Shown in pieces: positions 48,528-50,070 of a stretch of 64,000 nt of DNA. The DNA is taken from the IMG/VR virus record IMGVR_UViG_3300019370_000055, positions 32,001-96,000 of that record; one strand, written 5' to 3'. Under the pieces are notes generated by a model. It had not been told where the DNA came from, did no database searches, and saw nothing but the letters and a program-made list of their open reading frames with translations. Every line of letters starts with the position of its first letter. Position 1 is the stretch's first letter. The position numbers and the translations under genes are program-made. The DNA comes from a virus. Taxonomy: Duplodnaviria; Caudoviricetes.

Positions 48528-49109
48528 ATGAAAAAGCTGAATGTAACTCTGATTGGTAATTCTCCCCTGATTATGCACTCTCCTAAGTGTGTAAATCCGC
48601 TGCATCCGATTAGCATTGAAATGAAAAAGTACACTTCTAAGAAGAAAAAGACAGAGGAAGATTTGCTGAAGATTTCTGATCTGGAATGGGAGTCTGGTGT
48701 TTATTGGGATGATACTGTTGGTTTACATATTCCGAATGAGTGCATCAAGGCTACAATCCAGAATGGCGCAAAGGCCAATCGTAAGGGCGCAGATATTTCC
48801 AAGTATCTTCAGGTTGATACTTTAATGGCTCCTGTTGATATTTCTGAGCCGCAGAATTATGAGATTTTGAAAACTGATAATCGTTATCGTGATGTGCGTT
48901 CTGTTTGTGTGCAGCGCAATCGTGTGATTCGTACACGTCCTCGTTTTAATACATGGAAAGTAACTTTTGATATTTCTTATGATGAGAATATGATGGATAT
49001 TTCCACTATCATCAATGCAATCGAATATGCTGGCAGTTATGTTGGCCTTTGTGAAATGCGTGATCGTGGATATGGTAGATTCTCTGCTAATATTGTTGAG
49101 GTAGCGTAA
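48528..49109 (+). CDS. stand-alone RAMP/Cas7-like protein, 193 aa
   Basis: LNVTLIGNSPLIMH, HIPNECIKATIQNGA and terminal G-loop VGLCEMRDRGYGRF follow RAMP motif order; RBS plus ATG 48528. Confidence 0.75.
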   Translation: MKKLNVTLIGNSPLIMHSPKCVNPLHPISIEMKKYTSKKKKTEEDLLKISDLEWESGVYWDDTVGLHIPNECIKATIQNGAKANRKGADISKYLQVDTLMAPVDISEPQNYEILKTDNRYRDVRSVCVQRNRVIRTRPRFNTWKVTFDISYDENMMDISTIINAIEYAGSYVGLCEMRDRGYGRFSANIVEVA

Positions 49110-49127
49110 GATTTATAAGGATATAAA

Positions 49128-49163
49128 GTCTGTACCATGCTACAAGTGTGGTATGGTACAGAC
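49128..49163 (+). other. 16-bp hairpin between the RAMP gene and the array
   Basis: GTCTGTACCATGCTAC pairs with GTGGTATGGTACAGAC (two G-U). Confidence 0.75.
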
Positions 49164-49173
49164 ATAAAATTGA

Positions 49174-49423
49174 GGATTATAGGGTCTGGTATGGTGAGGT
49201 TGGATAGGCTCGGATAGGATCAGGTATGATGAGGTAAGGATTTTAAGGTATGATATGGTCAGGTTGGGTATGGTTGAATCGGGTAGGATGCGGTATGGTA
49301 AGGATTTTAAGGCCCGGTAAGGTAGTGTATGATTAGGTTAGGTTAGATTAGGTGTGGTATGAATTTTAAGATTTGGCAAGGTCAAGTGAGGTGTAATCTG
49401 GTTTGGTTAGGTAAGGATTTAAA
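49174..49423 (+). ncRNA. array 1: four units of GGT-NN pentamers with GGATTTTAA linkers
   Basis: 11, 11, 10 and 9 phased pentamers starting at 49183, 49247, 49311, 49370. Confidence 0.8.
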
Positions 49424-49454
49424 AAGATATTTTTAATAAAGGAGTAAAATCAAA

Positions 49455-49904
49455 ATGAAAACAAATAAGCAAGTAGAAAAACTTGTAAATTATATTGTCG
49501 AAAAGGACTATGGAACAGTAATTTTTCATCAGGAAATTGCGAATTTGCTTGGTGTTCAATATGGTTCACAGCAATATAGTAGTATTGTTCAAAGGGCAAA
49601 AAAGAAGTTGCTTGAAGCTGGCAAGATGATTGATTGTGTTCGCAAAACGGGATATGAAATTATTATGCCAGATAACTATACTAATTCCGCAGTAAAAGCA
49701 CTTTCTGATGGCGCAAAAAAGATTGATAAAGGTGGCAAAATTATGGGTAATGCTCCAGTACAGAAAATGAGTCCTGCTGGTCTGGAATCATATAATCTTG
49801 TAAATGATCGTTTGCATCTTGTTCGTGCTGCTATTGCAGGAGCAGTCGTAGAAGTTAATATGCTTAGTCAAAAGCGACCTCATCCTCTTGCATTAACAAA
49901 GTGA
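49455..49904 (+). CDS. hypothetical protein embedded between the arrays
   Basis: Strong RBS; HQEIANLLG suggests an HTH. Confidence 0.7.
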   Translation: MKTNKQVEKLVNYIVEKDYGTVIFHQEIANLLGVQYGSQQYSSIVQRAKKKLLEAGKMIDCVRKTGYEIIMPDNYTNSAVKALSDGAKKIDKGGKIMGNAPVQKMSPAGLESYNLVNDRLHLVRAAIAGAVVEVNMLSQKRPHPLALTK

Positions 49905-49917
49905 TATATTAGATTAA

Positions 49918-50040
49918 GGTAAGGATTTTAAGGTTAGGTTTGATGGGGTGTAGTGAGGTATGATATGGTGAGGTTTGGTATGGTTAGGATTTTAAGGTAC
50001 GGTATGATTCGGTTCGGTTAGGTCAGGTGGGGTATGGGTG
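49918..50040 (+). ncRNA. array 2: two more GGT-NN pentamer units
   Basis: Linkers at 49923 and 49987; 11 and 8 pentamers. Confidence 0.8.
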
Positions 50041-50047
50041 TAAAAAA

Positions 50048-50070
50048 TCTCCCCCATAAAGTGGGGGAGA
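50048..50070. terminator. hairpin closing array 2
   Basis: TCTCCCCCAT/GTGGGGGAGA stem. Confidence 0.6.

What the first reader, a model, noticed from the sequence alone, without database searches (positions are those of the whole stretch)
48528..50070. Lone RAMP/Cas7-like gene plus GGT-NN pentamer arrays: candidate minimal RNA-guided system with a non-contiguous code
SEEN: a 193-aa protein with RAMP motif order, then a hairpin, then six non-coding units. Each unit has 8-11 strictly phased pentamers: a near-constant triplet (mostly GGT; also GAT, GGC, AGT, AAT) plus a free dinucleotide, and units are separated by GGATTTTAA. The NN strings differ per unit: U1 CT AT GA TG AG CG AG CA AT GA AA; U2 AT AT CA TG AT TG CG AG GC AT AA; U3 CC AA AG AT TA TA TA TA GT AT; U4 TT AA CA GA GT CT TT TA AA; U5 TA TT GG GT GA AT AT GA TT AT TA; U6 AC AT TC TC TA CA GG AT. 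No cas1, cas2, nuclease or CRISPR array is in the window. KNOWN: Cas7-type RAMPs polymerise along guide RNA with a fixed nucleotide period. INFERENCE: one protomer binds per pentamer, the triplet is scaffold, the NN pairs jointly spell a gapped target of about 16-22 nt, and the linker marks processing; silencing of competing phages or host genes is a plausible role. From memory this resembles recently reported viral VIPR (GGY/NN) systems; that link is unverified here.
Basis: partly seen in the sequence, partly recalled or inferred. Interest (0 to 1): 0.97.

Follow-up and report, generated by a model that had tools for sequence, protein, structure and literature searches.

The report
Phage VIPR guide-RNA system, rival-targeting
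This is a real example of the VIPR systems described in 2026 (a small Cas7-like protein plus guide RNAs built from five-letter repeats), carried by a 124-kb gut phage, and at least two of its six guides match genes of a related rival phage, so it is a known kind of system with newly predicted targets.

Summary

- **Vipr protein.** The 193-aa protein (48528-49109) is a full-length homolog of SUSP1 Vipr (PDB 36pp, E 2.4e-26). Five of eight RNA/DNA-contact residues checked are identical.
- **Guide units.** Six GGY-NN units (8-11 pentamers each) lie in two arrays. These are the only such arrays in the 124-kb phage genome.
- **Missed gene.** It is a winged-helix homolog of SUSP1 Vap1 (hhalign 96%).
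- **Family context.** Relatives with 60-84% identical Vipr keep the same layout with different NN strings. No Cas1 or CRISPR array is present.

Applying the published 1-nt-skip rule gave predicted targets:

- U1 matches 20/20 and U5 20/22 on one element, a temperate phage related to the host phage. Only skip 1 works.
- U2 matches 20/20 in nine IMG/VR phages, at the motif MIQWIWRSAI of a YonV-like helicase. This is weaker evidence.
- U3, U4 and U6 have no target above chance.

The system differs from SUSP1 in three ways: 9-nt GGATTTTAA linkers replace the roughly 40-nt pseudoknot tail, the gene order is vipr-array-vap-array, and the GGY is relaxed.

VIPR is already in print, and this scan has flagged it in at least 211 other genomes. 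Verdict: new member of a known kind, moderate interest. Expression and binding are untested.

The parts
48372..48462 (+). tRNA-Ser(UGA) immediately upstream of vipr (context, left boundary of the locus)
   Evidence: ARAGORN; Rfam tRNA 41.3 bits
48528..49109 (+). vipr gene, 193 aa (P0002), a RAMP-family Vipr protein
   Evidence: Matches PDB 36pp 'SUSP1 Vipr protein' at E 2.4e-26 over residues 1-190. BLASTP against phiSUSP1 ALH47069.1 gives 31% identity, E 1e-34. phrog_4652 E 8e-49. H17, K33, E71, R138 and R179 (SUSP1 numbering) are invariant in the alignment.
49128..49163 (+). 16-bp hairpin after the vipr stop. Its 3' arm reads GGTAT GGTAC, which are pentamer-like.
   Evidence: RNA fold, present in both MFE and centroid structures. 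Conserved in the 84%-identical loci L003-L006, absent in more distant relatives.
49174..49182 (+). Leader copy of the linker (GGATTATAG) that opens array 1
   Evidence: Sequence. The same motif opens the arrays in L003 and L009.
49183..49423 (+). vrRNA array 1: units U1-U4 (11, 11, 10 and 9 pentamers), each closed by a 9-nt linker
   Evidence: Unit parsing; periodicity test. The region is predicted largely unstructured.
49455..49904 (+). vap1-like accessory gene, 149 aa (P0001): winged-helix domain plus a long helical hairpin
   Evidence: hhalign of the family profile A2 against SUSP1 Vap1 gives 96.2% probability, E 2.2e-9. AF2 pLDDT 95.5. Weak Foldseek hits to GntR/MarR/OmpR-type wHTH regulators. 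410 family representatives found.
49918..50040 (+). vrRNA array 2: leader handle GGTAAGGATTTTAA, U5 (11 pentamers), linker, U6 (8 pentamers), closing GGGTG
50048..50070 (+). 9-bp G+C-rich hairpin that ends the locus
   Evidence: It scores as a terminator for the minus strand; on the + strand no U-run follows it.
50076..50169 (+). Long-arm tRNA gene at the right boundary (ARAGORN: Ile, anticodon TAT, 94 nt)
   Evidence: Rfam tRNA 39.8 bits
50111..51179 (-). Neighbouring immunity module (context): ImmA/IrrE-like M78 peptidase and Cro/CI-type HTH repressor
   Evidence: Pfam PF06114 E 4e-10; PF13443/PF01381 E 1e-8 to 4e-7
51307..52053 (+). The phage's own diverged homolog (34% aa identity) of the gene that guide U1 matches in the rival phage (context). 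It has no U1 site itself.
   Evidence: tblastn; alignment of the target site

Best explanation
**What it is.** The locus is a VIPR system closest to the published type II (vipr + vap1), carried by a 124-kb temperate-looking phage of gut Bacillota that shares genes with SPbeta-like phages.

**Mechanism, transferred from the SUSP1 work (inferred here).**
- The + strand is transcribed across vipr, array 1, vap and array 2.
- Vipr protomers polymerise one per pentamer on each unit.
- They bury the GGY bases and present the NN dinucleotides.
- The filament pairs its NN with double-stranded DNA, skipping every third target base. It sits there as a transcriptional roadblock, helped by the DNA-binding Vap protein.

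**What is shown here.**
- Homology of both proteins to the SUSP1 pair.
- The repeat code, and its conservation with variable NN in relatives.
- Skip-1-only matches of U1 and U5 to two genes of one related temperate phage.
- An exact match of U2 to a conserved helicase motif in other related phages.
- No comparable match in the phage's own genome.

**Further inference.**
- The system silences related rival phages, either superinfecting ones or resident prophages.
- Each unit is delimited because the linker starts with GGA. The purine sits at the position where SUSP1 Vipr sterically excludes purines, and the following 4 nt break the 5-nt register. This would stop the filament and leave an exposed A/U-rich stretch for host RNases.
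For: **Protein homology.**
- P0002 matches SUSP1 Vipr in the PDB at E 2.4e-26, and at 31% identity / E 1e-34 over the full length.
- Contact residues named in the cryo-EM paper are kept. H17, K33, E71, R138 and R179 are invariant; D177 becomes E, W178 becomes M, M72 becomes C.
- The P0001 family matches SUSP1 Vap1 by hhalign at 96.2%, with a confident winged-helix model.

**The SUSP1 locus as positive control.** It shows the same GGYNN tracts beside its vipr and vap genes.

**The arrays.**
- They are unique in the genome and strand-specific.
- Eight related loci keep the unit and linker architecture with different NN strings.
- Across 44 units, position 1 is G in 88%, position 2 is G in 79%, position 3 is C or T in 96%, and positions 4-5 are variable.

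**Targets of U1 and U5.**
- U1 matches 20/20 (21/22 with the terminal dinucleotide) in a 234-aa gene, with the skipped base at the codon wobble position.
- U5 matches 20/22 on the same contig, at the last 10 codons plus the stop of a 150-aa gene. None of 200 shuffled guides reached it; the best scored 18.
- Both matches recur in independent assemblies.
- Only skip 1 scores: U1 gives 15/20/15/14 and U5 gives 15/20/16/15 for skips 0-3.
- The target contig is a relative of the host phage. Six ORFs share 30-67% aa identity. It carries integrase or resolvase, Xis, HTH repressor, YonG_N and YonD_N genes.

**Target of U2.** It matches 20/20 in nine IMG/VR contigs, always at MIQWIWRSAI of a YonV-like SF2 helicase, with varying wobble bases.

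**Self-targeting.** The best matches in the phage's own genome do not exceed the shuffled-guide nulls.
Against: **No functional data.** There is no RNA, binding or phenotype evidence. Transcription, processing and silencing are all inferred.

**No usable Vipr model.** The single-sequence model had pLDDT 33. The RAMP fold therefore rests on homology to the solved SUSP1 protein.

**Half the guides have no target.**
- U3 gave no exact hit in its 20-base scan.
- 18-base scans returned 1-7 hits in unrelated genes, which is the chance level.

**The U2 evidence is weaker.**
- I estimate roughly 0.04-0.1 probability of such a result by chance.
- Some exact hits are in 55% G+C phages that cannot share a host with this 37% G+C phage.
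- Cultured family members match only 15-17/20.

**The self/non-self margin is thin for U5.** It also matches the phage's own homologous gene at 18/22.

**Many pentamers depart from GGY** (GAT, AGT, AAT, TGT).

**Defining SUSP1 features are missing or changed.** The pseudoknot tail that caps SUSP1 vrRNAs is absent, and two G-contact residues differ (D177E, W178M).
Confidence: 0.85

Rival explanations
1. Self-regulation: the guides tune the phage's own genes (for example, the timing of early genes) rather than acting on rivals.
For: U5 matches the phage's own homolog of its target gene at 18/22, which is 82% and just above the 80% cutoff used in the VIPR paper. The locus sits next to the phage's own immunity switch.
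Against: 18/22 lies within the shuffled-guide null for the own genome (null maximum 19). The rival copy matches better, at 20/22. U1 has no site in the own homolog: the aligned peptide is LMDVNYIGER against LIDWSRSHID. U2's target gene family is absent from the own genome.
Confidence: 0.05
2. The locus is a decaying or inactive VIPR remnant. The array is drifting and the matches are leftovers.
For: About a quarter of the pentamers depart from GGY. The SUSP1-type tail is missing. D177 and W178 are substituted. One relative (L012) has a disrupted vap.
Against: Both ORFs are intact. The Vipr family has 1096 homologs and the Vap family 410 representatives. The same relaxed pentamers and linkers recur in all relatives examined, which points to a clade-specific consensus rather than decay. 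Exact 20/20 matches are not expected from drift.
Confidence: 0.05
3. The main role is against host functions: the untargeted guides U3, U4 and U6 silence bacterial genes such as defence systems.
For: Three guides have no phage target. The October 2026 preprint reports vrRNAs directed at host sequences. Other follow-ups in this scan proposed restriction-gene or CRISPR-gene targets for other VIPR loci (unchecked).
Against: No host genome could be identified or searched. Every guide that has a significant hit points to phage genes.
Confidence: 0.1
4. The pentamer tracts are ordinary G/T-rich simple repeats or a protein-binding array unrelated to the neighbouring gene.
For: Tandem Repeats Finder sees almost nothing there: one 15-nt-period row.
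Against: The periodicity lies far outside the shuffles and is unique in the genome. The tracts accompany Vipr homologs in every locus examined, including the experimentally characterised SUSP1 locus. The variable positions give skip-1-specific matches to phage genes.
Confidence: 0.01

Closest known systems
Type II VIPR of Escherichia phage SUSP1 (Vipr + Vap1 + vrRNAs; bioRxiv 10.64898/2026.04.26.720920, .720927; PDB 36pp)
   Same: - Homologous Vipr (31% identity over the full length) and homologous Vap1.
- GGY-NN pentamer guides of 8-12 repeats on the coding strand of the operon.
- Phage-borne; no cas genes and no CRISPR array.
- 1-nt-skip matches in coding sequences, with the skipped base at the wobble position.
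- Targets in competing mobile elements.
- Each repeat tract is closed by a GGR pentamer (GGG or GGA) in both loci.
   Different: - Units are joined by a 9-nt GGATTTTAA linker, not separated by a roughly 40-nt pseudoknot tail and a leader.
- Gene order is vipr-array-vap-array, not (vrRNA)-vipr-vap-array.
- G1 and G2 are relaxed (88% and 79% G).
- D177E and W178M substitutions.
- The host is a gut Bacillota-type phage rather than a coliphage.
- Predicted targets are related temperate phages rather than a satellite.
'Staggered' vrRNA arrays mentioned in the VIPR discovery preprint (fig. S18 legend)
   Same: [quoted passage not shown] Here consecutive units abut through a 9-nt linker that shifts the 5-nt register by one.
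   Different: The figure is not held, so identity of the two architectures could not be checked. The preprint says only the other two architectures (ribozyme-interspersed arrays and single-vrRNA systems) were confirmed by small-RNA sequencing.
Class 1 CRISPR Cas7 backbone filaments (types I and III)
   Same: A RAMP protein polymerises on guide RNA with a fixed period, and thumb insertions interrupt base pairing. This comes from the papers, not from tests here.
   Different: - No CRISPR repeats, Cas1/2, Cas6, nuclease or large subunit.
- Period 5 with only 2 pairing bases per protomer.
- By sequence the only hint is a non-significant Csm4 hit over the G-loop (E about 1).

Membership tests
VIPR system | A Vipr protein: small single-RRM RAMP with G-loop and thumb, homologous to published Vipr | tested here: met
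   PDB 36pp 'SUSP1 Vipr protein' at E 2.4e-26 over residues 1-190; BLASTP E 1e-34. H17, K33, E71, R138 and R179 are invariant. The fold itself was not modelled: the single-sequence AF2 model had pLDDT 33.
VIPR system | vrRNA genes made of at least 4 tandem GGY-NN (YNNGG) pentamers with a conserved triplet and hypervariable NN | tested here: met
   Six units of 8-11 pentamers. Across 44 clade units G1 is 88%, G2 79%, Y3 96%, with variable NN. The tracts are unique in the genome.
VIPR system | Minimal locus without cas genes or a CRISPR array; mostly viral or proviral | tested here: met
   No Cas1 in the genome; no CRISPR-like tandem array. The record is a 124-kb virus with portal, terminase and helicase genes.
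VIPR system | Targets obey the 1-nt-skip rule (NNxNNx) | tested here: met
   U1 reaches 20/20 and U5 20/22 only at skip 1 on the same related-phage element. U2 reaches 20/20 in nine phages. The phage's own genome has no match above the null.
VIPR system | vrRNAs are expressed, bound by Vipr, and repress transcription | not testable with these tools
   No expression or binding data are available for this uncultured phage.
VIPR type II (SUSP1 / P. fulva) | Accessory gene vap1 encoding a predicted DNA-binding protein | tested here: met
   hhalign of profile A2 against SUSP1 Vap1 gives 96.2%, E 2.2e-9. The model shows a winged helix plus a helical hairpin.
VIPR type II (SUSP1 / P. fulva) | Placement in the type II clade of the Vipr phylogeny | not tested
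   The paper's tree and tables are not held. The only evidence is 31% identity to SUSP1 Vipr.
VIPR type II, SUSP1 clade | Invariant roughly 40-nt 3' tail with a pseudoknot after each repeat tract | tested here: not met
   Units are followed by only 9 nt before the next unit, and no conserved structure is predicted in the array. Only U6 is followed by a hairpin.
CRISPR-Cas class 1 | CRISPR repeat-spacer array plus cas1/cas2 and effector genes | tested here: not met
   The neighbouring genes are tRNAs, an immunity module and a MazF-like toxin.

The most novel reading that the evidence does not exclude
In this clade, vrRNAs may be made without a structured tail or a ribozyme. A GGA pentamer plus a 4-nt register shift would act as a built-in stop for the Vipr filament, so guide length is set by protein footprint and host RNases trim the exposed A/U-rich linker.

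The system would then serve as RNA-programmed heteroimmunity between related SPbeta-like temperate phages of the gut. It would silence the first genes after a rival's lysogeny switch and a conserved helicase motif.
Probability: 0.3. Interest if true: 0.55.

Novelty: new member of a known kind. Interest (0 to 1): 0.4.

Why it matters
VIPR was described only in 2026, and the experiments come from coliphage SUSP1 and a Pseudomonas prophage.

This locus shows three things:
- The same code, with the same 1-nt skip, can be read out from sequence alone in a clade whose Vipr is only 31% identical to SUSP1's.
- The clade lives in gut Bacillota-type phages.
- It has a more compact array format than SUSP1.

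It also provides concrete guide-target pairs. U1 matches a 234-aa early gene and U5 a 150-aa gene of a widespread related temperate phage. U2 matches a YonV-like helicase motif. These pairs could be tested directly in reporters.

It suggests a simple rule, a purine at pentamer position 3, for where a Vipr filament ends.

It does not change the picture of what VIPR is.

Tried and rejected
- **Single-sequence AF2 fold of Vipr.** It gave pLDDT 33 and was unusable. The second fold job went to Vap, so no Vipr model or Cas7 fold search was made.
- **Pfam on both proteins.** Nothing found.
- **Megablast of 20 kb of the window against cultured phages.** No match.
- **Exact 20-base skip-1 scans of IMG/VR for U1, U3 and U5.** No hits.
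- **18-base scans for U4, U6, U1 and U5.** They returned 1-7 hits in unrelated genes. I treat these as chance level, including the U6 hit in a major head protein gene that happens to be in wobble phase.
- **Other guides against the U2-hit phages.** Only U2 scored on G001, G002 and G005.
- **Guides from eight related VIPR loci, scanned against the U2-hit phages and the U1/U5 target element.** None exceeded the shuffles, so no convergence across loci was shown.
- **U3's 16/20 at a conserved intergenic site** next to the U1 target gene. Not significant.
- **Whole-record scan of the U1/U5 target contigs for U2.** Not possible, because the records are not held.
- **Function of the U1 target protein.** No lead from Pfam, PHROGs or the protein atlas.
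- **Host assignment.** Vipr relatives sit in MAG bins labelled Prevotella and Oscillibacter. Phage contigs are often mis-binned, so I rejected these as host evidence.
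Full report
**1. What is there**

The window is bases 32001-96000 of a 124,011-bp IMG/VR virus record judged 97% complete. It encodes a portal, a terminase, a helicase, a tRNA nucleotidyltransferase and an RNA ligase/kinase. Its portal is most like those of large Bacillota phages, at about 30% identity.

On the + strand between two tRNA genes (48372-48462 and 50076-50169) lie, in order:
- a 193-aa gene at 48528-49109;
- a 16-bp hairpin at 49128-49163;
- a linker-like GGATTATAG;
- four pentamer units U1-U4 (49183-49423), each closed by GGATTTTAA, GAATTTTAA or GGATTTAAA;
- a leader GGTAAGGATTTTAA;
- units U5 and U6 (49932-50035);
- a closing GGGTG and a 9-bp hairpin at 50048-50070.

Phased GG counts of 6 or more per 60 nt occur nowhere else in the 124-kb genome and only on the + strand. 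The maximum is 9, against at most 6 in 20 shuffles. There is no CRISPR-like tandem array and no Cas1. Rfam finds only the two tRNAs and no ribozyme.

**2. Identity**

VIPR systems are in print. The discovery preprint covers Vipr + vap + vrRNAs of 9-16 YNNGG repeats, the 1-nt skip rule, seven types and a mostly viral distribution. A cryo-EM preprint shows one protomer per repeat, GGY sequestered and NN presented. An October 2026 preprint covers competition between phage and satellite.

The 193-aa protein matches the PDB entry 36pp, 'SUSP1 Vipr protein', at E 2.4e-26 over residues 1-190 of both. It matches the phiSUSP1 gene product at 31% identity, E 1e-34.

Contact residues named in the structure paper compare as follows:

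| SUSP1 residue | State in the alignment |
|---|---|
| H17, K33, E71, R138, R179 | invariant |
| D177 | E |
| W178 | M |
| M72 | C |

The SUSP1 locus fetched as a control shows the expected GGYNN tracts upstream and downstream of vipr-vap.

The 149-aa protein has 410 family representatives. Its profile matches SUSP1 Vap1 at 96.2% probability, E 2.2e-9. A confident model (pLDDT 95.5) shows a winged helix followed by a long helical hairpin. Foldseek hits to GntR/MarR/OmpR-type DNA-binding domains are weak. This fits the paper's description of type II vap genes as predicted DNA binders.

The single-sequence model of Vipr failed, so the RAMP fold rests on homology to the solved protein. A profile search of the PDB otherwise gave only a non-significant Csm4 hit over the G-loop.

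**3. The family around it**

The protein has 1096 homologs in the large collection. I examined loci whose Vipr is 60-84% identical, taken from metagenome assemblies and two MAG bins.
- Each has GGYNN units of mostly 8-12 pentamers joined by GGATT plus 4 nt.
- The NN strings are unrelated between loci.
- Usually a vap homolog follows the first array.
- One locus has about 24 units.

Across 44 distinct units, position 1 is G in 88%, position 2 is G in 79%, position 3 is C or T in 96%, and positions 4-5 are variable. The last NN before the linker is AA in 23 of 44, so GGYAA-GGATTTTAA looks like a constant handle.

Each 9-nt linker shifts the 5-nt register by one. This may be what the preprint calls 'staggered' arrays, but its figure is not held. 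The preprint indicates that this architecture was not among those confirmed by RNA sequencing.

In both this locus and SUSP1, the pentamer that ends a tract has a purine at position 3: GGA or GGG. The structure paper says the Y3 pocket sterically excludes purines. I therefore infer that GGR acts as a filament stop. This is my inference, not a tested result.

**4. Targets**

I converted each unit to the published query form (NN joined by one wildcard).

*Own genome.* The best skip-1 matches (14-18 of 18-22) do not exceed the shuffled-guide nulls.

*Exact scans of IMG/VR.*
- 20 specified bases: no hits for U1, U3 or U5, and nine for U2.
- 18 specified bases: 1-7 hits in unrelated genes, which calibrates the chance level.

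*U2.*
- All nine hits fall on the peptide MIQWIWRSAI near the C-terminus of a 410-490-aa SF2-helicase-like protein: phrog_2467, with a DEAD/ResIII-like N-terminus, homologous to SPbeta YonV.
- The skipped bases sit at wobble positions and vary between hits. The proteins are only about 41% identical overall.
- Cultured members of the family match 15-17/20, mostly because they use other codon families for R and S.
- The phage itself lacks this gene.
- Two of the hit phages share 24 and 36 ORFs with it.
- One of those has 55% G+C, so some exact hits merely reflect the conserved motif.
- I estimate a chance probability of about 0.04-0.1, and I treat U2 as probable only. An earlier claim in this scan that guides spell conserved motifs partly fell on later checking.

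*U1 and U5 (stronger).*
- The one metagenome scan found U1 at 20/20 (21/22) in a single sequence type, inside a 234-aa gene and in wobble phase.
- On the same 13.5-kb contig, U5 matches 20/22 at the last ten codons plus the stop of a 150-aa gene. No shuffled guide out of 200 exceeded 18.
- The exact 234-aa protein is listed in 121 blocks of the assembly index, including a mouse-gut metagenome.
- In six further assemblies U1 is 20/20 every time. U5 is 19-20/22 wherever its gene is present.
- With 0, 2 or 3 skipped bases neither guide exceeds 16. This is an independent recovery of the skip rule.

*The target element.* It carries integrase or resolvase, a Tn916-type Xis, HTH repressors and YonG_N and YonD_N genes. 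In one assembly it abuts bacterial SLH-protein genes, so it is a temperate phage. It is a relative of the host phage: six ORFs share 30-67% aa identity. A chance hit in a huge metagenome collection would hardly fall in a relative.

*Self versus rival.*
- The phage's own homolog of the U1 target is the 248-aa gene at 51307-52053. It is transcribed divergently from an ImmA-like peptidase and a Cro/CI-type repressor just downstream of the VIPR locus.
- It is 34% identical to the rival's gene and has no U1 site.
- The own homolog of the U5 target matches 18/22, which is a thin margin.
- All three matched guides have the sense of the target mRNA. They could pair with the template DNA strand but not with the message.

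*U3, U4 and U6.* They have no target above chance.

**5. Mechanism and verdict**

*Shown:* homologous Vipr and Vap, the repeat code, conservation of the architecture with variable NN, and skip-1-specific matches to genes of related phages.

*Inferred from the SUSP1 work:* transcription of the arrays, one protomer per pentamer, DNA binding and transcriptional silencing.

*Inferred by me:*
- The GGR stop and trimming of the linker by RNases.
- A role as RNA-programmed exclusion of related temperate phages, perhaps expressed next to the phage's own immunity module.

Compared with SUSP1, the locus lacks the pseudoknot tail, has a different gene order, tolerates non-G at positions 1 and 2, and has two changed G-contact residues.

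This is a new member of a known kind. This scan has already flagged VIPR in at least 211 other genomes, and an 84%-identical Vipr is present in NCBI nr. That is the database the authors searched, so this clade is probably within their catalogue.

Noticed in passing
window 50076-50169 (+): The tRNA at the right edge of the locus is 94 nt with a long variable arm. ARAGORN nevertheless calls it tRNA-Ile with anticodon TAT, which is an unusual combination. It also overlaps the 3' end of the longest reading of the minus-strand M78 peptidase ORF (50108-50794).
   Followed up: no
window 50111-52484: Right after the VIPR locus there is an ImmA/IrrE-like M78 peptidase and a Cro/CI HTH repressor on the minus strand. 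A divergent 248-aa gene and a PemK/MazF-like toxin gene (52134-52484) follow. This looks like an immunity switch with a toxin beside it; no antitoxin was looked for.
   Followed up: partly
window 49128-49163, and L003 3593-3625: The 3' arm of the hairpin after vipr reads GGTAT GGTAC. In the closest relatives it runs on into GGATT, so it resembles a two-repeat mini-guide sequestered in a stem. It could be a Vipr-sensitive regulatory element or just a remnant.
   Followed up: no
L008 3086-4600: A relative with 68% identical Vipr carries about 24 consecutive guide units (about 1.4 kb) and no vap gene directly after the array.
   Followed up: no
L012 3640-4300: In the Oscillibacter-binned relative, the vap homolog is cut off after about 39 codons by unrelated sequence, possibly an insertion.
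   Followed up: no
window 48335-48365 and 50048-50070: Two similar hairpins, each preceded by AAAAATCTCCCC, bracket the tRNA-VIPR-tRNA block. They score as terminators only for the minus strand, although the flanking genes are on the plus strand.
   Followed up: no
L022 4741-4766: U6 plus the following TG matches 18/18 in wobble phase to the motif HIPWYDDIV of a major head protein gene in one IMG/VR contig. This is a single hit at a pattern length where 1-7 chance hits are seen, so I did not count it as a target.
   Followed up: partly
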